Shown in pieces: positions 1,504 to 61,550 of a stretch of DNA of 64,000 nucleotides. The stretch is from Clostridia bacterium. GTDB lineage: Bacteria > Bacillota > Peptococcia > Peptococcales > BICA1-8. Location of the stretch: the NCBI GenBank assembly GCA_012720075.1, contig JAAXZE010000007.1:465-64464 (forward strand), in the 5' to 3' direction. The notes beneath the pieces were generated by a model. That model searched no databases, was not told where the DNA came from, and saw nothing but the letters and a program-made list of their open reading frames with translations. Made by a program: the position numbers and the translations under genes. Positions within the stretch are counted from its first letter, which is position 1, and each line of letters opens with the position of its first letter.

Positions 1504-1507
1504 CATT

Positions 1508-1545
1508 AACGTGACATAGTGTCACAGTGCCATCGTGACATCGAA
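1508..1545 (+). repeat. Repeat module A (AACGTGACATnGTGTCACnGTGCCATCGTGACATCGA), copy 1
   Basis: Near-identical 37-38 nt copy at 11062-11098. Diverged copies at 2888-2923 and, inverted, at 25355-25390. Confidence 0.85.
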
Positions 1546-1550
1546 AGTTT

Positions 1551-1700
1551 TATTGATGCATCCGATGAAAGTTAAGCTTTGAAGATGCATCTGCTTTCAA
1601 GCAAAAAGCATGATGCATCCTTTAAGCTAGCTCAGGTGCAAGTGCGTCAAGACTGTTTCACATGCATGAGATGCAACCTAAACACTGGTTACTAGGTTAC
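1551..1700 (+). repeat. Word array: palindromic GATGCATC x3 at 28-29 nt spacing, then the RBS-proximal module CCTAAACACTGGTTACTAGGTTAC
   Basis: GATGCATC at 1555, 1584 and 1612. CATGCATGAGATGCAACC at 1661-1678. The terminal module aligns with the spacers upstream of cof, uvrA and the hydrogenase operon. Confidence 0.7.
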
Positions 1701-1724
1701 TATAAGATAATTGAGGTGATTGAC

Positions 1725-2829
1725 ATGGATTTTGAAATTAATCGGGAATTGGAAATAGCTGCCAAGCGTGTTAAAGATTTGAGGGATTCACTTTGACCTG
1801 CCTAGTAAATTAAGGCAGATTGAAGAATTGGAGCATAAAGTGGGTCTTCCTGATTTTTGGGATGACCCTGAAAAGGCCCAAAAAACTATGCAGGAGCTTA
1901 CAAAATTAAAGGATAAGGTGGAACAAATCAACAGGTTGGAGCGAAAGCTGGAGGATATAGAAGTTCTTTACCAATTAGGAAGGGAAGAAGGGGAGGAGGT
2001 AGTTGCCTCTGAAATTACTGAGGAACTTGAGGAATTAAACAATCTTTTGGAAAAAATGGAGTTAGAGACTCTCCTTAATGGTAAATATGATCGAAACAAT
2101 GCCATTTTAACTTTACATCCCGGAGCCGGAGGTACAGAGTCCCAGGATTGGACGGAGATGCTATATCGGATGTATACCCGGTGGGCTGAAAGTAAAGGCT
2201 ATCGGGTGGAAGTTTTGGACTATCTTCCGGGTGATGAAGCCGGTATAAAAAGCGTAACCATCTCTATTGAAGGAGAAAATGCTTACGGTTATCTGAAAGC
2301 CGAATAAGGGGTTCATCGATTAGTTAGGATTTCGTCCTTTGATGCTTCAGGTAGGAGACATACGTCTTTTTCGGCTGTGGAAGTTATGCCGGAAGTCAAT
2401 GACGAAACAACTATTGAAATTGACCCCAAGGATTTAAAAGTTGACACCTATCGTTCCAGTGGTGCCGGCGGACAGCATGTCAATAAGACCAGTTCGGCGG
2501 TTCGGATTACCCATATTCCCACAGGAATCGTTGTTCAATGTCAAAACGAACGGTCCCAGATAAGCAATCGGGCTACGGCAATGAAAATTTTGCGTTCCAA
2601 ACTGCTGGAATTACAAATGAAGGAAAAGGAAAAAGAATTGGCCCAACTTAAAGGAGAACAGCAGGAAATAGGCTGGGGCAGCCAGATTCGTTCCTATGTA
2701 TTCCATCCCTACAGTTTGGTTAAAGACCATCGTACCGGAGTGGAAAAGGGCAATGTCCATGCCGTTATGGACGGAGATTTAGATGATTTTATTACCGGAT
2801 ATTTAAAAATGCAGGCCTCTCAACAATGA
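1725..2829 (+). CDS. prfB: Peptide chain release factor 2 with the programmed +1 frameshift, but interrupted by an in-frame TAA (2305-2307). A pipeline would call this a pseudogene.
   Basis: ATG 1725 follows a GAGGTG SD. 22 codons are followed by CTT TGA C (1791-1797). The +1 frame then joins listed ORFs 1828..2307 and 2377..2829, which share one frame. GGQ motif [11 protein letters not shown] is present. TAA replaces the Lys of the conserved YLKAEKGVHRLVR, and ISSFD sits where RF2 has SPFD. Confidence 0.85.
1782..1797 (+). promoter_or_regulatory. prfB autoregulatory +1 frameshift site (SD-like AGGGA, then CTT TGA C)
   Basis: Sequence AGG GAT TCA CTT TGA C. The zero frame stops at TGA 1794-1796, and the +1 frame (GAC from 1795) is open and encodes RF2. 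Confidence 0.9.
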
Positions 2830-2846: not shown

Positions 2847-2887
2847 ATAATATTGGTCATGTGTCCAATGGTCAGTGATTAATATTT

Positions 2888-2923
2888 AGTGTCATCGTGT
2901 CACCTTGACGCCGTGACATCGAA
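2888..2923 (+). repeat. Repeat module A, diverged copy, forming the first module of the composite element 2888-3043
   Basis: AGTGTCATCGTGTCACCTTGACGCCGTGACATCGAA aligns with the module A copies at 1508-1545 and 11062-11098 and, inverted, at 25355-25390. Confidence 0.75.
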
Positions 2924-3043
2924 AATTTATGAAAAATTGGAATGGTTGGCGTCATGTTAATGTTAACCTTAACTATAACTTCAGCCTCAATCTTTAACCT
3001 AGCAAAGCAAAACCTAAACTTTTTTTAAAACTGTAGCGCCGAC
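2888..3043 (+). repeat. Composite intergenic repeat, module order A-E-B-C
   Basis: Collinear over about 150 nt with the reverse complement of 25240-25392. Shared modules: GTGTCACC..GACGCCGTGACATCGAA, AAATTGGAATGGTTGG, and CTCAA.CTTTAA.CTAGCAA.GC. Confidence 0.85.
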
Positions 3044-5484: not shown

Positions 5485-5494
5485 TTACTTACGG

Positions 5495-5765
5495 GTAAAT
5501 TTATTGGGTCTGATAGTACTCAAGAGTTGAGATATTGCGTCTGACATCTCCTCAATGGTTATATTTTTGGTCTGACAATATTAATTGGTTAACATTTTGA
5601 CCTTTAAAATAGAACGATTTGTATATGTGTATAATTAAATTTTATCAGACGCAAAAGATTGCCTTTTAGAACTTTCTAACCCATGAGTTAGACATCCTGG
5701 CAATTGTCAGACGCAAAAGATAGGCTTGTAGACAAATTATCTGACCCGCAAGATAGACCCTTAAG
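5495..5765. repeat. Palindromic word-array element (GTCTGA / TCAGAC words) inserted between the two transketolase subunit genes
   Basis: GTCTGA at 5508, 5539 and 5570 (31-nt period). The inverse TCAGACGCAAAAGAT is at 5645 and 5707 (62 nt apart), around an AT-rich centre. The right end GACCCGCAAGATAGACCC matches the ends of the uvr spacer elements. Confidence 0.8.
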
Positions 5766-5790
5766 ATAAAAGAAACGGAGGTTTTAATAT

Positions 5791-10994: not shown

Positions 10995-11148
10995 CTGTAG
11001 CTACAGTTATTAAGGTTAAGGTTTCGCTGCGCTAGGTTAAAGGTTGAGGTTAGAATACAAAAACGTGACATTGTGTCACCGTGCCATCGTGACATCGATT
11101 TTCAGTTGGGAAAGTTGGAATGTAATTCTCAACTCTCCATTCTCAATT
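10995..11148. repeat. Composite intergenic repeat, module order C-B(rc)-A-E-D(rc)
   Basis: CTGTAGCTACAG palindrome at 10995-11006. B module at 11010-11052. A module at 11062-11098, nearly identical to 1508-1545. D module at 11125-11148 is the reverse complement of 17671-17699. Confidence 0.85.
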
Positions 11149-14914: not shown

Positions 14915-16320
14915 CTAAATCCTGTATTTACCCAAAGTTCGGTCTCCTTTAACCACATGGACGGCGCAAGAAAAACAAGGGTCAAAGGAGCGAATTACCC
15001 GCCCCACTTCAATCAGGCTGTCCATATTATTTATCGGTGTACCTATTAATGCTTTTTCTACAGGACCAGGGTTATCTTTACCGTCCCTGGGGGAGAAATT
15101 CCAGGCGCTGGGAGTTACTACCTGGTAATGGGCAATCCGGCCGTTTTTTATTTTTACCCAATGGCCTAAAGGCCCCCGCATGGAATCAATTAATCCTGTA
15201 CCTTCGGTCTCAGACAAAGGTTCATATTTTTTTAGTGAACCTTGGTTTATGTTTAGGTCTTCCAGCCAGGTAAACATGCCTTTTACAATTTCCCTTAGCT
15301 CTAGAGCCCGGGCAATGTTCCGGTCATTGACAGATACTCCCCTTCGATATATACCGTTAATCCAGAGACGGGCCAAGGGCCCTCCCTCAAATGGCTTATC
15401 CTGATAACGGGGGGCTTTAATCCAGGAATAAGCTCCCGGTTTTTGGTCGTCGGGGATGGTTTTTTCCTCATATGGATGACGGCCTGTATCCACTTCTTGA
15501 TAAAAGGAATTTGTTACTTCTTCGGTTATAAGTTTTGGCTCAATGCTTTTAGCTTCCTGAGAAAAATTTTCCGCAAAACCCGGTTTAAGCAAAGGTGATT
15601 TGTTATCGGTCAGGGGAAACATGCCATAGGTTATTAGGTTGCCGTAACCTTTGCCGATTTCATAATAATCGGGGTAATATTGGGCTACTGTATAGACGTC
15701 AGGAATATATTTTTCTTCCACAAAGGTTTGGATTTCTTTAAGGATGGAGAAAAACATATTTATTTTTTCAGCATTAGGTTTTTCCGCTATTCCGCCGGGC
15801 AAAATGGTTTGCTGATGGGGGCTTTGGCTCCCCAGATGGCCACCAACTGGTGGGCCTTGGCGCTTAAATGGATGGCAAGCCAGTAATTTTCGAACAGTGT
15901 TTTTTCAATATTGGGAGGAATTCGATAATCACCGGGCATTAACGGACGAAAAGGCGATGTTTCCGGACCCCGGGCATAATCGGGTAAAGTCAAGATATAA
16001 AACTGGCGCAGATGATTCTGGATAAAATCCGCCCCTACTATCAGGTTGCGAAGGAGGTAACCGTTATGGGCCGGGCTTATCCGGTATGCATCTTCTAAAG
16101 CTAAGGTACTGGCAAGGGCATGGGCAGTGGAACAAATACCGCATATTCTCTGAGAATAAAGGGGAGCATCCAAGGGGTGACGGTTTTCAAGCATTAGTTC
16201 AAATCCCCGGAATAAAGGGCTGTTAACCCAGGCATCGGTAATCACACCGTTATATACTTCTACTTCAACTTCCAAAGGTTCGTGGATTCTGGTTAGAGGA
16301 AAAACCTTTTTTTTCACCAC
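14915..16320 (-). pseudogene. [NiFe] hydrogenase large subunit, split by a 1-nt frameshift in a C5 (plus-strand G5) run at 15817-15821
   Basis: ORF 15787..16320 carries the N-terminal ligand motif RICGICSTAH. ORF 14915..15802 carries the C-terminal DPCFSCAVH plus a cleavable tail. The conserved GAKAPHQQTILPGG is recovered only by shifting -1 after GCC CCC. Confidence 0.8.
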
Positions 16321-17604: not shown

Positions 17605-17630
17605 AATTTATTTCTCCCCGCCTAAAATAT

Positions 17631-17799
17631 TAGTGTTTTAGTGTGTGAGTGTGAAAGTGTGTAAGATTAGTTGAGAATTGAGAATGAGAGTTGAGAATGT
17701 TCCTTTCCACTTCTTCCAACAATCCATTTTTTCAGCTAAATATATTAACCTTAACCTAGTGAAGCGCAACCTTAACCTTAAAAAACTGTAGAACTGCAG
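17631..17799. repeat. Composite intergenic repeat, module order F-D-E-B-C, in the leader of the hydrogenase operon
   Basis: F GTGTGTGAGTGTGAAAGTGTGTAAG. D TTGAGAATTGAGAATGAGAGTTGAGAATG. B TTAACCTTAACCTAGTGAAGCGCAACCTTAACCTTA. C AAAAACTGTAGAACTGCAG. Collinear with the reverse complement of 10995-11148 apart from the missing A module. Confidence 0.85.
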
Positions 17800-17970: not shown

Positions 17971-19953
17971 ATGACAGACAAGTTTAAATTGGTATCTGAT
18001 TTCAGGCCCCGGGGCGATCAGCCCAAAGCCATTGCCCAATTGGTGGACGGATTATATAGAGGCTTGCCCAAGCAAACCCTTTTAGGTGTAACAGGTTCGG
18101 GCAAAACTTATACTATGGCCAATGTCATTGCTGAGGTTAACCGGCCTACCCTGGTAATTGCCCATAATAAGACTTTGGCGGCTCAGCTTTGCAGTGAGTT
18201 CAAGGAATTTTTCCCTGAAAACGCCGTGGAGTATTTTGTCAGCTATTATGACTATTACCAGCCGGAGGCATACATTCCCTATACCGATACTTATATTGAA
18301 AAGGATGCGCAAATTAATGAAGAAATTGAAAAGTTGAGACACTCGGCTACCTCGGCTCTTTTTGAAAGACGGGATGTAATTATTGTGGCCAGTGTTTCTT
18401 GCATATATGGTTTAGGTTCCCCCGAGGATTATAAAAACCAAACCTTATCCCTTAGGGTAGGGCAGGAATACGATAGGGATAAGATTTTAAGAAAACTGGT
18501 GGATATTCAATATGAACGGAATGACGTTAACTTTGTGAGGGGTACTTTCCGGGTGAGGGGCGATGTCATCGAGGTATTGCCGGCTTCGCTGACGGAAAAG
18601 GCTTTAAGAATTGAAATGTTTGGCGATGAGATAGAGCGGATTTTGGAGATTGATACAGTTACCGGCGAGATAATAGGTCAGCGCCAACATGTAAGTATTT
18701 TCCCGGCAACCCATTATATTACCGCTCCTGAATATTTAGAAACCGCTATCCAAAATATCGAAAAGGAATTGGAAGAAAGTCTTCAGGAACTGCGCAGCCA
18801 GAATAAGCTCCTGGAGGCCCAAAGGCTGGAACAGAGGACCCGTTATGACCTGGAAATGATCCGAGAGGTAGGTTTTTGTACCGGGATAGAAAACTATTCC
18901 CGCCATTTAACGGGAAGAAAACCGGGGGAACCCCCCTATACTCTTTTGGACTATTTTCCTGAGGATTATTTGATAATGATTGATGAATCCCATGTTACCA
19001 TTCCACAAATAGGCGGGATGTATGAAGGAGACCGGTCCCGCAAAACCAATTTGGTAGAGTACGGTTTTAGGCTGCCCTCGGCCTTGGATAACAGACCTTT
19101 AAAATTCCATGAATTCGAAGAAAAAATCGGGCAGACAATTTTTGTTTCCGCAACTCCCGGTCCTTATGAGCTAAAACACAGCAGCCAGATTGTGGAACAA
19201 ATTATCAGGCCTACCGGTTTGGTTGACCCTGAAGTAGAGGTTAGACCGGTCAAAGGTCAGATTGATGACCTCTTTGACGAAATAAAGAACAGAGTGGAAC
19301 GGGGCGAAAGGGTGCTTATTACTACCCTTACTAAAAAAATGGCTGAGGACCTGACTGATTATTTTAAAGAGGCCGGTCTTAAGGTTCGCTATCTTCACTC
19401 AGAAATAAAAACCATTGAAAGAATGGAAATTTTAAGAGATTTGCGCCTGGGCGTTTTTGATGTTTTAGTAGGAATAAACCTATTGCGGGAAGGGTTGGAT
19501 TTACCGGAGGTCTCCTTGGTGGCTATTTTGGATGCCGATAAAGAAGGCTTTCTCCGCTCGGACCGTTCATTAATCCAGACTATCGGTCGGGCTGCCCGAA
19601 ATGTTAACGGCAAGGTTATCATGTATGCCGATAAAATCACCGGCTCCATGGAGCGAGCCATCAATGAGACTAACCGGAGGCGAGCTTTACAAATAGCTTT
19701 TAATAAGGAGCATAATATTACTCCCCAATCCGTTAAAAAATCGGTGCGGGATATTATCGAAGCCACTAAAGTGGCTGAAAAAGAACCTGAATATAAGCTA
19801 TCCCAGCAAAATGTGGATAAGATGTCTAAGGATCAATTAAAGAAAATGATCAAGGATCTGGAAAAGGAAATGCAGGAAGCGGCCCGGGCTTTGGAATTCG
19901 AACGAGCCGCTTTGATCAGGGATTTGATTATCGAACTCAAAGGGAAACTATAG
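17971..19953 (+). CDS. uvrB: Excinuclease ABC subunit B
   Basis: [12 protein letters not shown], helicase motifs and a C-terminal UVR domain ([11 protein letters not shown]). Confidence 0.97.
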
Positions 19954-19954
19954 G

Positions 19955-20290
19955 CTTTGGGGCTATTTTTGGGGTCGGCATGACGGCGTGACGTCTTTGG
20001 GGTTACAATGCACGTCAGTATGACGTCTTACAGGTTATGTCACAGGTCCGCATGACGGCCTACAGGTTATATTTTAGGTCCGCATAATGGTTTAGGTGAT
20101 AATTTACAGAAAATATTTATATTTTGCTGACCCATGATATTGGCTTGGTAGACGTCATGCTGACCAAAAAGTAGCGGAGGAGCCGTCATGCCGTCCCAAA
20201 ATGTTGCCTGTTAGCCGTCATGCAGACCCTAGAGTTTAACCCGTTAGCTGTAATGCTTGACCCTAAAAGATGACCCACTAGCTACAGGAG
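19955..20290. repeat. Imperfect palindrome of about 335 nt built from four degenerate ~32-nt units per arm (core GCATGACG / CGTCATGC)
   Basis: Left-arm cores at 19978, 20018, 20050 and 20082. Right-arm inverse cores at 20153, 20184, 20216 and 20249. Symmetry centre near 20120. Confidence 0.85.
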
Positions 20291-20299
20291 GGAATAGAC

Positions 20300-23128
20300 A
20301 TGGCCAAAGATAAAATCATAATCAAAGGAGCGAGGGTAAATAACCTTAAAAACATAGATATTGAAATACCCAGGGATAAATTTGTAGTAATAACCGGTCT
20401 CAGCGGCTCGGGAAAGTCTTCTTTAGCTTTTGATACCATTTATGCTGAAGGACAGCGCAGATATGTGGAATCTTTATCTGCCTATGCCCGGCAGTTTTTG
20501 GGCCAGATGGATAAGCCTGACGTTGATTATATCGAGGGCTTATCACCGGCCATATCCATTGACCAGAAAACTACCAACCGTAATCCCCGGTCAACGGTGG
20601 GCACGGTAACGGAAATCTACGATTATCTTCGGTTGTTATTTGCCCGGATTGGAGTACCCCACTGTTATAAATGCGGCACGCCCATAGCCCAGCAAACCGT
20701 CCAGCAGATGGTAGACCAACTGATGAGCTATCCTGAAAGAACCAAATTGCAGATTTTAGCGCCGGTTATCCGGGGACGAAAAGGTGAGCACAGGAAAGTA
20801 CTGGAGGATTTAAAAAAAAGCGGTTATGTGCGGGTTATGGTAAATGGAGAGTTGAGGGAATTAAGTGAAGAAATCATCTTGGATAAAAATAAAAAGCATA
20901 ACATTGAGGTGGTGGTTGACCGGGTAATTATCAAGGAAGGTGTGGAAAGCCGGTTGGCAGATTCGCTGGAAACGGCCTTAAATTTATCGGAAGGCGTAGT
21001 CAATGTGGATATTATTGACGGGGAAAGGCTGGTTTTTAGCCAGAATTTTGCCTGTGTTGACTGCGGTATCAGTTTTCCGGAGATTACCCCTCGAATGTTT
21101 TCCTTTAACAGTCCTTATGGGGCCTGCCCCGAATGTGACGGTTTAGGAACAAAACTGGAAATAGAGCCGGATTTGGTTATACCGGACTGGACTTTGTCCC
21201 TGGCTGAAGGAGCCATAGCCCCCTGGAGTAAAAATACCAACGGTTATTATCAGCAAATTTTGGCGGCGGTGGGTAAGCATTATGGTTTCAGCATGCATAC
21301 TCCTGTCGGCAAATTGCAGCCGGAACATATTCATGTTATTTTATATGGCTCCGGCAATGAAAAAATTAGAATAAAATATACCAATATGTATAATGAAACC
21401 CGGGTTTATGACTCTGTCTTTGAAGGGGTCATCCCCAATCTCTACCGGCGGTATCTGGAGACCCAGTCCGAGTTGTCTAAGGCCGAGACGGAACAGTATA
21501 TGACCAATAAACCCTGTCCCCGATGCAAAGGCGCTCGGCTGAAACCTGAGGTTTTGGCGGTAAAAATCGCCGGAAAAAATATTTCGGAAGTTACGGATAT
21601 GACGGTTTCAGAAATTAAGAATTTCTTTGATAATTTAAAGCTTACGGAGAGAGAGTTACTTATTGGCCGTCAGGTTCTGAAAGAAATTAAGGAAAGGTTG
21701 AACTTTCTGGTCACGGTAGGTTTGGATTATTTGACCTTAAGCAGGACTGCCGCTACATTGTCCGGAGGTGAAGCCCAGCGGATCAGACTGGCGACCCAGA
21801 TAGGGTCAGGGTTGGTCGGTGTTCTTTATATCCTGGACGAGCCCAGCATCGGTTTGCATCAACGGGATAATGACCGTTTGATTGAGGCTTTAAAACATTT
21901 GCGGGATATCGGCAATACTTTAATCGTTGTGGAACATGACGAAGACACTATGCTGGCCGCCGATCATATCATAGATATAGGTCCGGGGGCCGGAGCCCAT
22001 GGCGGGAAGGTAGTAGCCCAGGGTACCATCGAAGAAATCAAGGCGGTTAAAGAATCCATTACCGGCCAATATCTATCCGGTGCCAAGAAAATTCCCGTTC
22101 CGTTAATCAGGCGCCCTCCCAATGGCAAATGGATAAGGGTCAAAGGCGCCACTGAAAACAATCTGAAAAATCTGGATGTCGCTTTTCCTTTAGGGGTTTT
22201 CACCTGTGTCACCGGGGTTTCAGGTTCCGGCAAAAGTACCCTGGTCAATGAAATCCTTTATAAAGGCCTTATAAGGAAACTGTATAAAAACTCCAAAGTG
22301 GAACCCGGTCAACATATTTCCATAGAAGGTGCGGAGCACCTGGATAAAATAATCGACATAGACCAGTCCCCCATCGGCCGGACGCCCCGGTCTAATCCGG
22401 CTACCTATACATCGGTTTTTGATGCCATCAGGGAGATTTTTGCCCAAACTCCTGAGGCCCGGATGCGGGGCTATAAACCCGGTCGCTTTAGTTTTAACGT
22501 AAAAGGGGGCCGCTGTGAGGCATGCCGGGGAGATGGAATAATTAAAATTGAGATGCATTTTCTGCCTGACGTTTATGTGCCTTGTGAAGTATGTAAGGGT
22601 CAGCGCTATAATCGGGAAACCCTGGAGATTAAATATAAAGGGAAAAATATTGCCCAAGTTTTGGATATGACGGTAGATGAGGCTGTTGAATTTTTCCAAA
22701 ACCTGCCTAAAATCTATCGCAAGCTGAAAACTCTACAGGATGTGGGGTTGGGTTATATCCGCCTGGGTCAGCCGGCTACCACTTTATCGGGCGGTGAAGC
22801 CCAAAGGGTTAAGTTGGCTACCGAACTTTCTCGCCGTAGTAATGGTAAAACCCTGTATATTCTGGATGAGCCTACAACGGGCCTGCATATAGCCGATATT
22901 CATAAACTTTTGGGGGTATTGGCCCGTTTAGTTGACGCCGGAGATACGGTAGTAGTTATCGAGCATAATTTGGATGTAATAAAATGTGCCGACTATGTCA
23001 TTGATTTAGGACCGGAAGGTGGCAATAAAGGGGGACAAATCATTGCTATCGGAACACCCGAAGAGATAGCCGGTGTAGAGGAGTCTTATACGGGACAATT
23101 CTTGCGCAAAGTGCTGAGCAAGGGATGA
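20300..23128 (+). CDS. uvrA: Excinuclease ABC subunit A
   Basis: Two ABC modules ([18 protein letters not shown]; two LSGGEAQR signatures) and zinc-finger cysteines. Confidence 0.97.
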
Positions 23129-23365
23129 GCATGACGGCTCTAAAGCTATTCTGCACGTCAGTATTAAAACAATAACTAGCTTGATTACTACAGGCAGCTT
23201 GCGCAAAAAGTATTATAAAAAAACCGACCTAATATTTTACTTGGTAGACGTCACACCGACCCAATGTTTAACTCCGGTGACGTCACTCCGGCCTTATATC
23301 TAAACCCGTGAGCCGTCATGCTGACCCGAAAGATTGCAAAGCAGCCATCATGCCACCCAAGGGAG
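23129..23365. repeat. Second member of the GCATGACG/CGTCATGC element family, in the uvrA-uvrC spacer
   Basis: GCATGACGGC starts immediately after the uvrA stop. CTTGGTAGACGTCA (23240) is shared with 20144. GCCGTCATGCTGACCCGAAAGAT lies at 23302-23324. An internal ACTAGCTTGATTACTACAGG module lies at 23175-23194. Confidence 0.8.
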
Positions 23366-23374
23366 GTGACTTTC

Positions 23375-25234
23375 TTGTTGCAAGACAAAATTAACGCTTT
23401 ACCCGCGAAACCCGGAGTGTATCTAATGAAAAATGCCGAAGGGGAGATCATTTATGTGGGTAAAGCCGTTTCGCTGAAAAACAGGGTTAAATCCTATTTT
23501 CAAAGTAAAAGGCATGATTCGGCCAAAACCAGGGCTTTAGTTAAAAATATCGCCGATTTGGAATACATTATTACCGATAATGAACTGGAAGCCTTAATCT
23601 TGGAATGCAATTTGATTAAGAAACACAGGCCGAAATATAACATTAGCCTTAAAGATGATAAAACTTACCCTTATCTTAAGATAACCGCCGAAGAATTTCC
23701 CCGGGTTATTGTAACCCGTAAGGTTTATAAAGACGGAGCAAAATATTTCGGCCCCTATACCAGTGCCACAAGCCTCAGGGAAACCGTTGAATTATTAAAA
23801 AAGCTGTTTCCTTTCCGCAGTTGCAATCAAAAGGTATTTTCCAATGAGAGGCCTTGTCTGAACGCCTATATCAAAAGATGTCTGGCCCCCTGTCAGGGGG
23901 GTATTACCAGGGAACAGTACGGTGAAATCATTAAACAGGTTGAACTTTTTTTGGAAGGCAAACAAGAGGCTTTGATAATAAAGCTGGAAAATGAAATGGA
24001 ACAGGCGGCATTGAACCTGGAGTTTGAGCGGGCGGCCCAATTAAGGGACCAGATAATTAGTATTAAACAGGTTATAGAAAAACAGAAAATTGTTTCCGCC
24101 GGTGATGAAGACCAGGATGTTATGGCTATGGCCAGAGGTTTTAACGAAGTTTGTGTCCAGGTTTTTTTCATCAGAGGTGGAAAACTGATTGGCCGGGAGA
24201 ATTTCTTTTTAAAAGGGACCGATGATATGGAGCGTTCCGAAGTGCTGGAAGCTTTTATAAAGCAATACTACATTCAGCAGGATTTTGTACCCAAGGAAAT
24301 ACTGGTAGAAACCGAATTACCTGAAGTAAAGGTTCTGGAACAATGGCTTTCAGAAAAGAAGGGACAACGGGTATATATCAAGGTCCCCAAAAAAGGAGAA
24401 AGAAAGGAACTCTTGGAACTGGTAGCCAAAAATGCCTTAGAGGCTATGGAAAAAGCGGACCTGGAAAGAGAGCAGAAGAAAAGTATGACTGAAGGAGCTT
24501 TATTGGAATTGCAAAAAGAACTGGCTTTGCCCAAGCTGCCCCTTCGTATTGAATGTTATGATATATCCAATACCCAAGGAACGGAAACTGTAGCTTCAAT
24601 GGTAGTCTTTGAAGGCGGTAAGCCTAAAAAGGACCAATACCGCAGGTTCAGGATAAAAACGGTGGAAGGCCCTAATGACTTTGCCAGTATGTACGAGGTA
24701 ATAACCCGCAGATTTCGTAACGCCAGGGAAGAAAACAACTCCGGCGACCAAGGGAAATTTTCATCTTTGCCCGATTTGGTCATTATTGACGGTGGTAAAG
24801 GACAATTGCAGTCTGCCAGGAAAGCCATGGAGGAGCAGGGGTATGCTTATATCCCCACCTATGGCCTGGCCAAGCGGGAGGAATGGCTTTTTTTCGAAGA
24901 GGAATCGGAGCCCATTATCCTACCCCGTTCTTCCAAGGCCCTCTTTCTTCTGCAGCGGATCAGAGACGAAGCTCACCGTTTTGCTATAACTTATCACAGA
25001 AGCTTACGGGGTAAAAGGAACTTGGCTTCCATCCTGGATGATATCCATGGTATTGGGGAGAAAAGAAAGAAAAAACTCCTGCAGCATTTCGGCTCTTTTA
25101 AAAAAATTCAATCGGCAAGTATTGAAGAGCTTCAAGAGGTAGAAGGAATTAACCGCAAAGTTGCCGAAGCAGTATACGATTACCTTCGCACTCACCAGGA
25201 TTTATTGCTTAGAACTAGAAATAGTGAGGATTAA
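23375..25234 (+). CDS. uvrC: Excinuclease ABC subunit C
   Basis: GIY-YIG (GVYLMKNAEGEIIYVGKA), UVR domain, endonuclease and HhH2 C-terminus. TTG 23375 lies 8 nt after GGAGG; the listed ORF start 23318 lies inside the repeat. Confidence 0.93.
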   Translation: MLQDKINALPAKPGVYLMKNAEGEIIYVGKAVSLKNRVKSYFQSKRHDSAKTRALVKNIADLEYIITDNELEALILECNLIKKHRPKYNISLKDDKTYPYLKITAEEFPRVIVTRKVYKDGAKYFGPYTSATSLRETVELLKKLFPFRSCNQKVFSNERPCLNAYIKRCLAPCQGGITREQYGEIIKQVELFLEGKQEALIIKLENEMEQAALNLEFERAAQLRDQIISIKQVIEKQKIVSAGDEDQDVMAMARGFNEVCVQVFFIRGGKLIGRENFFLKGTDDMERSEVLEAFIKQYYIQQDFVPKEILVETELPEVKVLEQWLSEKKGQRVYIKVPKKGERKELLELVAKNALEAMEKADLEREQKKSMTEGALLELQKELALPKLPLRIECYDISNTQGTETVASMVVFEGGKPKKDQYRRFRIKTVEGPNDFASMYEVITRRFRNAREENNSGDQGKFSSLPDLVIIDGGKGQLQSARKAMEEQGYAYIPTYGLAKREEWLFFEEESEPIILPRSSKALFLLQRIRDEAHRFAITYHRSLRGKRNLASILDDIHGIGEKRKKKLLQHFGSFKKIQSASIEELQEVEGINRKVAEAVYDYLRTHQDLLLRTRNSED

Positions 25235-25239
25235 ATTAA

Positions 25240-25392
25240 AGATTACGCCAACATTGTTGGCTATCTTACGCCTTGCTAGATTAAAGGTTGAGGTTAAGGT
25301 TAAAGGGTATTAACGTGACATCATGATACCAACCATTTCAATTTTTTTTAAGCTTTCGATGTCACGGCGTCACGGTGACACGATGTCACAAA
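25240..25392. repeat. Composite intergenic repeat, module order B(rc)-E(rc)-A(rc)
   Basis: Reverse complement is collinear with 2888-3043. Contains the palindrome GCCAACATTGTTGGC and a duplicated TTACGCC. Confidence 0.85.
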
Positions 25393-25432
25393 ATCTTTGT
25401 CATCAGTAACTATTTATAAGGGGGTGTGTGGA

Positions 25433-39799: not shown

Positions 39800-39807
39800 G
39801 ATGATGA

Positions 39808-39867
39808 GGTTAAGGTTAAGGCTAAGGTTAAGGCTAAGGTTAAGGTTAAGGCTAAGGTTAAGGTTAA
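39808..39867 (+). repeat. Hexanucleotide tandem repeat GG(T/C)TAA x10
   Basis: Ten contiguous units starting 9 nt after the gpmI stop. The unit is the reverse-complement word of repeat module B (AACCTTAACC). Confidence 0.95.
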
Positions 39868-39959
39868 GGTTTTACTTAGGTATAAAAGATATATTTTCAT
39901 TAGGTTTAGCTTTTTTGGATTATAGGTAAGCAAACATAGGGGTATAGTAAGCTAATAAA

Positions 39960-41382
<1,423 letters not shown>

Positions 41383-58166: not shown

Positions 58167-58279
58167 GAGGTTTAGGCTAAGGTTAAGGTTATATTGTATT
58201 TAATATAATAGCTTTATTCCTTTCTCAACCTTAACCTAGCGTAGCGAAACCTTGATCTTAATTTGTTTTAAACTGTCAC
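58167..58279. repeat. Repeat family copy (hairpin of B-module words, then modules B and C)
   Basis: TAGGCTAAGGTTAAGGTT (58173-58190) is inverted relative to AACCTTAACCTAGCGTA (58227-58243). CTCAACCTTAACCTAGCGTAGCGAAACCTTGATCTTA matches 17746-17780. Confidence 0.8.
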
Positions 58280-61195: not shown

Positions 61196-61550
61196 GGGGG
61201 TGTAATGGTTTCGACGGGGGAATTCGGTGGCTTGAGAAGCGAGTCGAGGTCGCACTGGCTCGTTAAACGTTGCACAAAAAATAAACGCTAAAAACAATAA
61301 CTTAGCTTTAGCTGCTTAATTGCAGTCTAACCTCCTACTTGCCTTTGCCTGTGGGGCGAGCAAGGGGGTCACATTAGCAGGCTACTCTTAAGTAACCGCC
61401 TTGTAGCTTAAGGGGAAACTTACAGGGCTGGCCGATGGAAATCCTGTTTGTGGGAGTTCCTGAGGCGAGATGCCAAAACACAAACTACGCTCGTAGATGC
61501 TCAGGTGGTCGATCTTCCGGACAGGGGTTCGACTCCCCTCACCTCCACCA
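61196..61550 (+). ncRNA. ssrA: tmRNA (SsrA), predicted tag reading frame GCT AAA AAC AAT AAC TTA GCT TTA GCT GCT TAA (AKNNNLALAA)
   Basis: The 5' GGGGGTG pairs with the 3' CACCTCCACCA acceptor stem, including G3:U. T-arm GGGGTTCGACTCCCC. The tag ORF ends ..LALAA-TAA. Located directly after smpB. Confidence 0.93.

What the first reader, a model, noticed from the sequence alone, without database searches (positions are those of the whole stretch)
19954..20299. The whole uvrB-uvrA spacer is a 346-nt foldback: two inverted arms, each made of four ~32-nt tandem units
uvrB and uvrA are normally closely spaced; here they are 346 nt apart.

Seen directly:
- GCATGACG-type cores lie at 19978, 20018, 20050 and 20082.
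- Their exact inverse CGTCATGC lies at 20153, 20184 and 20216, with a decayed TGTAATGC at 20249. Spacing in the right arm is 31, 32 and 33 nt.
- Three of the four core pairs share one symmetry centre at about 20120.5, inside an AT palindrome; the outermost pair is offset by about 3 nt.
- Each core sits in a degenerate unit GCCGTCATGCnGACCnnAAAA..TTAGCC.
- 20045-20066 matches the reverse complement of 20207-20228 at 19 of 22 positions.

The ~31.5-nt period equals three helical turns, which places the cores on one face of the DNA. As RNA, the region could fold into a hairpin with arms of about 150 nt.

Long inverted arms composed of short tandem repeats are the hallmark of eukaryotic foldback transposons. 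I know of no described bacterial equivalent with this architecture.
Basis: seen in the sequence. Interest (0 to 1): 0.75.

Follow-up and report, generated by a model that had tools for sequence, protein, structure and literature searches.

The report
Dispersed intergenic foldback repeat arrays
The long uvrB-uvrA spacer is a real hairpin-shaped array of 32-base units, but it is one copy of a previously undescribed family of non-coding repeats that fills gaps between genes in a small group of uncultured Peptococcaceae-like bacteria, not something special to DNA repair.

Summary
Window 19954-20299 holds four forward and four inverted ~32-nt units around an AT-rich centre, far above chance.

It is not specific to uvr genes. 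The same window holds three more such arrays:
- uvrA-uvrC spacer, 23124-23375.
- Between the two split transketolase genes, 5485-5790, with a sister core GCGTCTGACA.
- secA-prfB spacer, 1504-1736, with core GATGCATC.

Ten related lineages (UvrA 78-100% identical) carry arrays or relics in the uvr spacers. Arrays also lie at PHP-rapZ, after atpC and next to pilus genes. None was found in 1.55 Mb of other Firmicutes uvr loci, in viral contigs, plasmids, phages or Rfam.

Unit number varies from 0 to 8 per arm. Core subfamilies swap between species. One site is empty in one species and filled in others.

Unit sequences stay alignable where synonymous sites are saturated. Single units are not stem-loops, and no transposase or target duplication was seen.

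Best reading: a new BIME/BOX/MITE-like interspersed mosaic repeat, co-transcribed inside operons and tolerated because it folds back. Its mechanism of spread and any host function remain inferred.

The parts
19954..20299 (+). Foldback array E1 (subfamily A), the whole uvrB-uvrA spacer
   Evidence: identical in a second assembly of the same strain (L008)
19964..20099 (+). E1 left arm. Four units in forward orientation (consensus ttTTnGGGTCnGCATGACGGCTnACnGGnTAA). Cores at 19978, 20018, 20050 and 20082, plus an 8-nt-offset extra core at 19986.
   Evidence: lag-32 identity 0.60
20100..20142 (.). E1 AT-rich centre, including the small palindrome CAGAAAATAT-T-TATATTTTGCTG (20107-20129). No promoter or terminator signal above chance.
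20143..20288 (-). E1 right arm. Four inverted units (cores CGTCATGC at 20153, 20184 and 20216; TGTAATGC at 20249) plus a partial fifth unit. The last ~70 nt can be aligned in seven species.
20287..20302 (+). uvrA ribosome-binding site GGAGGG and ATG, left unpaired just 3' of the base of the predicted hairpin
23124..23375 (+). Foldback array E2 (subfamily A) in the uvrA-uvrC spacer. One to two left units (the first overlaps the uvrA stop codon) and about 4.5 inverted units (cores at 23249, 23281, 23314, 23346). It ends at the uvrC ribosome-binding site; the uvrC start is TTG 23376.
5485..5790 (+). Foldback array of sister subfamily B (core TTGCGTCTGACA / TGTCAGACGCAA), between the transketolase N-terminal and C-terminal subunit genes
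   Evidence: (self-reverse-complement z = 5.8)
1504..1736 (+). Small foldback array of subfamily C (palindromic core GATGCATC, same linker CCTTTAAGCTAG), preceded by (CGTGACAT)n, in the secA-prfB spacer
17971..19953 (+). uvrB (flanking gene)
20300..23128 (+). uvrA (flanking gene)
23376..25234 (+). uvrC (flanking gene; start placed by homology)

Best explanation
SHOWN
- The spacer is one copy of a lineage-restricted superfamily of non-coding interspersed repeats.
- Each copy has a run of ~32-bp units in one orientation, a short AT-rich centre, then a run of the same units inverted.
- A unit is a near-palindromic core plus a shared linker (..AAGCTAGACCC.TAAG..). Subfamily A has core GTC-nGCAT-GAC-GGC, B has GCGTCTGACA and C has GATGCATC.
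- Copies sit in short transcribed gaps. They usually run from the stop codon of one gene to the ribosome-binding site of the next gene in the same orientation.
- They stay at the same positions in species whose synonymous sites are saturated.
- Unit number, and even the core subfamily, change between species.

INFERRED
- These are BIME/BOX/MITE-like selfish-but-tolerated repeats.
- The near-palindromic core, repeated every three helical turns, is probably a recognition site for a protein that seeds or exchanges copies between loci. That protein could be an unidentified transposase or recombinase, or a host DNA-binding protein.
- Arrays then grow and shrink by slippage or unequal recombination.
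- Because they are transcribed inside operons, the two arms pair into a long imperfect hairpin. The hairpin loops the insert out, places the upstream stop codon next to the free downstream ribosome-binding site, and carries no terminator. Operon expression therefore survives.
- Any host effect is most likely on mRNA processing or stability, or on the relative dosage of the cistrons.
For: Dispersal:
- Subfamily A units occur in window E1 and E2, in L005, L092, L382 and L381, after atpC in L191, and as a half-array downstream of a degU-like response-regulator gene in L111.
- Subfamily B units occur at window 5485-5790 between the split transketolase genes, in the uvrA-uvrC spacer of L001 and L090 (L002 holds a degenerate version seen by eye), in the PHP-rapZ spacer of L002 and L089, and next to Flp-pilus genes in L111.
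- No unit hit better than E = 0.4 in 1.55 Mb of uvr loci from 80 other Firmicutes, and none in 1.38 Mb of viral contigs.

Turnover and filled versus empty sites:
- uvrB-uvrA spacers measure 60-457 nt and uvrA-uvrC spacers 75-509 nt.
- The PHP-rapZ spacer is 15 nt (only a ribosome-binding site) in L090, 178 nt (2+2 units) in L089 and 387 nt (7+4 units) in L002.
- The uvrA-uvrC spacer holds subfamily A in the window, L092, L382 and L381 but subfamily B in L001 and L090.
- Within one species, differences cluster in an array: 7-8 of 21-41 differences over 22.8 kb.
- Two independent assemblies break at the same base inside an array, and L381 has a scaffold gap there.

Persistence:
- Window versus L005: identity at four-fold degenerate sites is 0.55-0.56, but E1 is 0.85-0.93 identical.
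- Window versus L092: four-fold identity is 0.34 (saturated), yet 332 columns align at 66%.
- Orthologous right arms (87%) are more alike than paralogous ones within the window (~68%).

Foldback:
- 11 of 17 arrays fold with z of -2.5 or lower, and the outermost pair encloses nearly the whole spacer and leaves the ribosome-binding site free.
- The sense strand is more stable than the antisense strand in 13 of 17 arrays.
- Among arm mismatches, G:U outnumbers A:C 80 to 51.
- No promoter or terminator signal above chance was found.
Against: - No target-site duplication, no transposase and no copy with a gene between the arms was seen, so mobility is inferred only from dispersal.
- Positional conservation over deep divergence, and sequence conservation well above synonymous sites, are unusual for purely selfish DNA in bacteria. 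They point towards a host function.
- The arms are often very unequal (8 vs 5, 2 vs 4, 5 vs 1-2 units) and half-arrays exist. This weakens any model in which the hairpin itself is what is maintained.
- The G:U excess and the sense-strand stability bias are modest. Transcription-associated mutation bias could produce them.
- Only about 300 kb from this clade could be examined, so genome-wide copy number is extrapolated.
Confidence: 0.55

Rival explanations
1. Host-selected RNA element. The arrays are kept because the long hairpin in the polycistronic mRNA is used. It could act as an RNase III or RNase Y processing site or as a stabiliser that uncouples the levels of neighbouring cistrons. It could also act as a structural bridge that keeps translational coupling across the spacer.
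For: - The arrays lie in transcribed spacers, and the hairpin base spans from the stop codon to just before a free ribosome-binding site.
- The sense fold is more stable than the antisense fold in 13 of 17 arrays, and G:U outnumbers A:C 80 to 51.
- Sequence is conserved well above four-fold degenerate sites.
- From general knowledge, ERIC and Correia elements are processed in this way.
Against: - Arm sizes are unbalanced and half-arrays exist.
- There is no partner-specific complementarity between mirror units.
- Left arms are gained and lost while right arms persist.
- Relics of 60-69 nt in L002 and L090 show the hairpin is dispensable at uvrB-uvrA.
- Near-palindromic cores have no obvious RNA rationale.
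Confidence: 0.2
2. Host-selected DNA element. The units are phased binding sites (one per three helical turns) for a dimeric DNA-binding or nucleoid-associated protein, or for a topoisomerase. This would be analogous to gyrase or IHF binding at E. coli BIMEs. The two convergent runs would then assemble a nucleoprotein complex in operon spacers.
For: - The cores of all three subfamilies are palindromic or nearly so: GnCGnCATGnCGnC, GTCTGAC and GATGCATC.
- The period is 31-33 with mode 32 in both arms.
- The unit consensus is conserved where neutral sites are saturated.
- Function at the level of single units would explain unequal arms and half-arrays.
Against: - No candidate protein is known.
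- Three different cores would need three specificities or a loose one.
- Array length varies from 0 to more than 13 units at one locus with no visible consequence.
Confidence: 0.15
3. No mobility and no function. These genomes are simply prone to tandem-repeat expansion in intergenic DNA, and each array arose locally by slippage and inverted duplication.
For: - Many unrelated short tandem-repeat modules fill intergenic regions of the window and its relatives.
- Unit number is highly variable.
Against: - The same unit consensus and linker recur at unrelated loci and in ten lineages.
- The U->...<-U architecture and the stop-to-RBS placement recur at each locus.
- Subfamilies are exchanged at one locus between species.
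- Local origin cannot explain shared sequence between loci.
Confidence: 0.07
4. A uvr-specific regulatory region, such as an SOS or other operator array or an internal promoter controlling uvrA and uvrC.
For: - Arrays or relics are present in the uvr spacers of all ten lineages examined.
- The right arm next to uvrA is the best conserved part.
Against: - The same family fills spacers of unrelated genes (transketolase, secA-prfB, PHP-rapZ, atpC, pilus genes).
- By eye, no GAAC-N4-GTTC LexA box is present in the spacer.
- Promoter-like hits are not above chance.
- uvrB-uvrA arrays collapse to 60-69 nt in two species.
Confidence: 0.03

Closest known systems
BIMEs / REP clusters of enterobacteria and pseudomonads (including REPINs)
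   Same: - Short non-coding repeats clustered into mosaic arrays in transcribed extragenic gaps, at 3' ends of genes or between genes of an operon.
- Copy number per cluster varies between strains.
- Species-specific sequence variants.
- Form hairpins in mRNA.
- Candidate protein-binding sites.
   Different: - REP units are themselves 20-40-nt stem-loops and alternate in orientation within a cluster.
- Here single units do not fold better than shuffled sequence. They are head-to-tail within an arm, with a single inversion point.
- No RAYT gene is known for this family.
- The survey of tagged REPs that was consulted (PMC3733652) nowhere mentions Firmicutes or Clostridia.
Pneumococcal BOX elements (boxA-boxB(n)-boxC)
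   Same: - A Firmicute intergenic modular repeat with a variable number of tandem internal units and overall hairpin potential.
- Dispersed, with no known transposase.
   Different: - BOX has distinct terminal modules A and C and one direct run of 45-nt boxB.
- Here both arms are runs of the same 32-nt unit in opposite orientation, with no separate end modules.
- There is no sequence similarity.
MITEs with hairpin RNA (Correia/NEMIS, ERIC, RUP, bcr1)
   Same: - Small, non-coding and dispersed.
- Inverted ends.
- Co-transcribed with neighbouring genes and folding into long hairpins that can be processed.
   Different: - Those are single units with simple terminal inverted repeats and defined target duplications (e.g. 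TA).
- Here the inverted parts are tandem arrays of variable length, and no target duplication or parent insertion sequence was found.
Eukaryotic foldback (FB) transposons
   Same: Long inverted arms built from short tandem subrepeats, a variable number of subrepeats, and a short non-repeated centre.
   Different: - There is no evidence of common ancestry.
- FB elements make 9-bp target duplications, and some carry coding inserts; neither was seen here.
- The arms here are 10- to 100-fold shorter.
Ends of Tn7-like or Mu-like transposons (several transposase-binding sites per end, inverted between ends)
   Same: Direct repeats of a ~20-30-bp site within each end, the two ends inverted, and phased spacing.
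   Different: - The termini are GCT... or CTTA..., not TG...CA.
- No 5-bp duplication and no transposase genes were seen.
- No match in viral contigs.

Membership tests
REP / BIME | Each unit is an imperfect palindrome that forms its own 20-40-nt stem-loop | tested here: not met
   Mean single-unit fold energy is -4.9 kcal/mol for subfamily A and -2.5 for B. Shuffled units give -4.7 and -3.4.
REP / BIME | Units alternate in orientation within a cluster | tested here: not met
   Units are head-to-tail within each arm, with one inversion point per array.
REP / BIME | Extragenic, in transcribed gaps at gene 3' ends or inside operons | tested here: met
   Nearly all distinct sites lie between co-oriented genes, one lies between convergent genes (after atpC in L191) and none between divergent genes.
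REP / BIME | GTAG or CGTC tag next to the stem, and association with a RAYT transposase gene | tested here: inconclusive
   Some right-arm units read GTAG-ACGTC, but there is no stem-loop beside the tag. No RAYT gene lies in the regions examined. Whole genomes could not be searched.
MITE | Terminal inverted repeats, small size, no coding capacity, multiple dispersed copies | tested here: met
   Inverted arms of 100-250 nt; total length 160-500 nt; four copies in this 64-kb window and further copies in eleven other contigs.
MITE | Target-site duplication at the insertion boundaries | tested here: inconclusive
   The filled versus empty PHP-rapZ comparison (L089 and L002 versus L090) places the insert between the stop codon and the ribosome-binding site. 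The flanks are too diverged to reveal a duplication.
MITE | A parent insertion sequence or transposon sharing the ends | tested here: not met
   No transposase lies near any copy. The far side of the half-array in L111 holds only a terminator-like hairpin and a degU-like response-regulator gene. There is no match in viral contigs, plasmids or phages. The search was limited to about 300 kb of the clade.
Eukaryotic-type foldback transposon | Long inverted arms composed of tandem subrepeats | tested here: met
Eukaryotic-type foldback transposon | Evidence of transposition (target duplication, transposase-bearing copies, insertion polymorphism within a species) | tested here: not met
   None was seen. 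Strains of the same species (window versus L008; L002, L003 and L004; L005 and L006) have the same arrays. Only differences between species were found.
Pneumococcal BOX | Distinct boxA and boxC end modules flanking a direct run of boxB | tested here: not met
   Both arms are built from the same unit. The ends are simply the outermost units.
Described structured RNA (Rfam) | Match to a curated covariance model | tested here: not met
   There were no hits at E <= 1 in 19000-21000. Across the whole window at gathering scores, only the tmRNA matched.
Tn7/Mu-type transposon ends (mini-element) | 5'-TG...CA-3' termini, 5-bp duplication, cognate transposase | tested here: not met
   The termini read GCTTTGGGG... 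or CTTACGGG.... No duplication or transposase was found.

The most novel reading that the evidence does not exclude
The arrays may not be passengers. They may be a new class of host-maintained cis element. In that reading, phased (three-turn) runs of palindromic protein-binding sites in convergent orientation have been kept in the spacers of housekeeping operons since before synonymous sites saturated. They would act either as a nucleoprotein or topological device, or as an RNA scaffold that bridges stop codon and ribosome-binding site. Alternatively, they are the first bacterial foldback-type transposons whose arms are arrays of transposase-binding sites, with an autonomous partner still to be found.
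Probability: 0.25. Interest if true: 0.75.

Novelty: new variant of a known kind. Interest (0 to 1): 0.5.

Why it matters
Interspersed intergenic repeats (REP/BIME, BOX, ERIC, Correia) are known mainly from Proteobacteria and a few pathogens, and their function is still debated.

This family comes from an uncultured subsurface Firmicute lineage and has a different build: tandem 32-bp units in two convergent runs. Three features make it useful:
- It keeps orthologous positions while synonymous sites saturate.
- It is clearly dispensable at individual loci.
- It sits inside tight operons, even between the two halves of one enzyme.

This combination gives a natural series of 0 to more than 13 units at one locus. 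That series can be used to test whether such repeats act on DNA or RNA, and how operons tolerate 300-500 nt of insert between coupled genes.

Practically, the arrays break metagenome assemblies and mislead start-codon calls; the longest uvrC ORF starts inside E2.

Tried and rejected
1. uvr-specific or SOS operator: rejected because copies occur outside the uvr genes and, by eye, no LexA box is present.
2. Known RNA family: none found.
3. Internal promoter or terminator: hits are not above chance.
4. REP-like units: single units do not fold better than shuffled sequence.
5. Recent inverted duplication of one arm: there is no mirror-partner similarity.
6. Relay of translationally coupled mini-ORFs.
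   - Subfamily A left-arm units read as 11-codon ORFs chained by ATGA/GTGA overlaps, because 32 = 33 - 1.
   - The spacing distributions of left and right arms do not differ (32 nt in 17 of 26 versus 14 of 26).
   - I therefore treat this as a by-product.
7. Phage or plasmid origin: no matches.
8. The genome-contig scan with UvrA returned only relatives at 76% identity or less.
10. G:U versus A:C counts and sense versus antisense stability point weakly to RNA-level selection, but they are confounded by mutation bias.
11. Literature searches for a described equivalent found none.

Full report
OBSERVATION

The region 19954-20299 lies between uvrB (17971-19953) and uvrA (20300-23128); uvrC follows from 23376 (Pfam; homology).
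- Forward cores lie at 19978, 20018, 20050 and 20082.
- Inverted cores lie at 20153, 20184, 20216 and 20249, with spacing 31, 32 and 33 nt.
- The core pairs share a symmetry centre near 20120.5.
- 20045-20066 matches the reverse complement of 20207-20228 at 19 of 22 positions.

The pattern is far above chance.
- A 15-mer unit pattern hits the window 13 times against 1.8 expected.
- Self-reverse-complement alignment gives z = 10.2, and left-arm lag-32 identity is 0.60 against at most 0.40 in shuffles.
- The RNA fold is -127 kcal/mol with z = -5.1, the strongest of all intergenic regions in the window.
- In about 60 other Firmicutes most uvrB-uvrA gaps are under 25 nt, and 5-7 nt is the commonest value.

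IT IS NOT ALONE AND NOT SPECIFIC TO UVR GENES

The same unit pattern appears in the uvrA-uvrC gap, 23124-23375. Profiles built from the units and repeat scans show two more foldback arrays in the window.
- 5485-5790 lies between the N- and C-terminal subunit genes of a split transketolase. It carries a sister core, TTGCGTCTGACA.
- 1504-1736 lies between secA and prfB. It carries the core GATGCATC and the same linker.

All three subfamilies share three things: a ~32-nt period, the linker (..AAGCTAGACCC.TAAG..) and the layout units-forward / AT-rich centre / units-inverted. All three cores are palindromic or nearly so.

RELATIVES

The organism is an uncultured Peptococcaceae-like bacterium. UvrA homologues at 78-100% identity come from MAGs and metagenomes, including Peptococcaceae bacterium BICA1-8. 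I fetched ten such lineages. All carry arrays or recognisable relics in the uvr gaps.
- uvrB-uvrA gaps measure 60-457 nt; uvrA-uvrC gaps measure 75-509 nt.
- The number of units per arm runs from 0 to 8. The left arm in BICA1-8 grows by 64-nt double units.
- The uvrA-uvrC gap holds subfamily A in the window, L092, L382 and L381, but subfamily B in L001 and L090 (degenerate in L002).
- The last ~70 nt before the uvrA ribosome-binding site can be aligned in seven species, including those with only 60-69 nt left.

Arrays also occur at other loci.
- The PHP-rapZ gap is 387 nt in L002, 178 nt in L089 and 15 nt in L090, where it is empty apart from a ribosome-binding site.
- One array follows atpC in L191.
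- L111 has one array beside Flp-pilus genes and a half-array downstream of a degU-like response-regulator gene.

No unit hit better than E = 0.4 in 1.55 Mb of uvr loci from 80 other Firmicutes. None was found in viral contigs, plasmids or phages or Rfam.

EVOLUTIONARY BEHAVIOUR

- Between the window and its closest distinct relative (L005, UvrA 91%), four-fold degenerate sites are only 55-56% identical. E1 is 85-93% identical, and unit-specific features are kept. This is as conserved as the uvrB promoter region.
- For most other pairs four-fold sites are saturated at about 0.3-0.4. The arrays still align: window versus L092 gives 332 columns at 66%. Some neighbouring gaps without arrays do not align at all.
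- Orthologous arms (87%) are more alike than paralogous arms in one genome (~68%). So the arrays are inherited vertically rather than constantly homogenised.
- Against that, left arms are gained and lost, subfamilies are swapped at one locus, and within one species differences pile up in an array.
- Independent assemblies break inside arrays.

STRUCTURE

- Eleven of 17 arrays fold with z of -2.5 or lower. The outermost pair usually encloses the gap from just after the stop codon to just before a free ribosome-binding site.
- The sense strand is more stable than the antisense strand in 13 of 17 arrays. G:U outnumbers A:C among arm mismatches 80 to 51. This is suggestive, but mutation bias is a confounder.
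- Single units are not stem-loops.
- Mirror units are no more complementary than any other pair.
- The period is 31-33 with mode 32 in both arms.
- There is no promoter or terminator signal above chance.

INTERPRETATION

What is shown: a dispersed, lineage-restricted, non-coding repeat superfamily with a foldback-of-tandem-units architecture. It sits in transcribed gaps, is positionally persistent but structurally fluid, and is unrelated to any curated family.

What is inferred: it behaves like BIME/BOX/MITE-type repeats.
- It would be seeded or exchanged between loci by an unidentified enzyme or by ectopic recombination.
- It would expand and contract by slippage.
- It would be tolerated inside operons because the transcript folds back and leaves the next ribosome-binding site free.

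The near-palindromic cores at three-turn spacing make a DNA-binding protein partner plausible. The conservation above neutral sites leaves real room for a host function at the RNA or DNA level. A role specific to uvr genes is rejected.

COMPARISON WITH KNOWN KINDS

The family shares genomic niche and behaviour with REP/BIME clusters, but it fails their two structural definitions: stem-loop units and alternating orientation. It shares modular tandem units with pneumococcal BOX but lacks distinct end modules. It shares inverted ends and hairpin RNA with Correia and ERIC elements, but its arms are arrays. It shares architecture with eukaryotic foldback elements, but there is no evidence of transposition. 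I therefore class it as a new variant of a known kind (bacterial interspersed intergenic repeats), not as a member of any named family.

LIMITS

- Only about 300 kb of this clade could be read.
- Genome-wide copy number is therefore extrapolated: about one array per 10-16 kb in the sampled regions.
- No transcript or binding data exist.

Noticed in passing
window 14915-16320 (- strand): The NiFe hydrogenase large-subunit gene reads open for about 175 codons and then falls out of frame. Relatives have an intact gene of 468-470 aa. This is a frameshift, a pseudogene or an assembly error.
   Followed up: partly
window 1737-1830: prfB starts after the secA-prfB array and carries the classical RF2 +1 frameshift site CTT TGA C at about 1791-1797.
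   Followed up: no
window 61196-61550 (+): A tmRNA gene, matching Rfam RF00023 at 224.8 bits.
   Followed up: no
window 39807-39871, 58168-58191, 11000-11100, 17630-17791, 25270-25402, 2876-3037, 40046-40075; L089 17700-17960; L001 9780-9900: Intergenic regions are packed with other short tandem-repeat modules: (AGGTTA)n, (CGTGACAT)n, (TTGAGAA)n, (TTAGTGTG)n, (CACAAGT)n and (GGGCACA/GATTACA)n. These recur as mosaic blocks, in both orientations, at several loci. They form a second layer of dispersed repeats, reminiscent of cyanobacterial STRR heptamers.
   Followed up: partly
window 19980-20095 (E1 left arm); L001 12840-13080: Left-arm units read as a chain of 11-codon mini-ORFs whose stops overlap the next start (ATGA, GTGA, TAATG), because the period is 33 - 1 nt. 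Spacing statistics do not distinguish left from right arms, so this is probably incidental.
   Followed up: partly
window 20174-20205; L005 2349-2380; L092 9847-9878: One right-arm unit carries a strong Shine-Dalgarno-like GGAGGAG 5 nt upstream of the core ATG. This is conserved in three species and is followed by an ORF of 8 codons plus a stop.
   Followed up: no
window 23318-23375: The longest uvrC ORF starts at ATG 23318, inside array E2. Homology puts the real start at TTG 23376, after GGGAGGTG. Arrays can therefore mislead start-codon calls.
   Followed up: yes
L002/L003/L004 17574-17640: Differences within one species cluster in the left arm of the PHP-rapZ array: 7-8 of 21-41 differences over 22.8 kb. 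They occur in short tracts, which suggests unit-to-unit conversion or assembly ambiguity.
   Followed up: partly
L007 1874-6520: A 1548-aa UvrA-like protein with duplicated UvrA_inter and UvrA_DNA-bind domains, found next to a DUF4132 protein in an unrelated metagenome contig.
   Followed up: no
L382 4530-4560: The centre of a subfamily A array (uvrA-uvrC gap) contains three copies of the subfamily C core (GATGCATGATGCATCCGATGCATG). Modules of different subfamilies can therefore be combined in one element.
   Followed up: no
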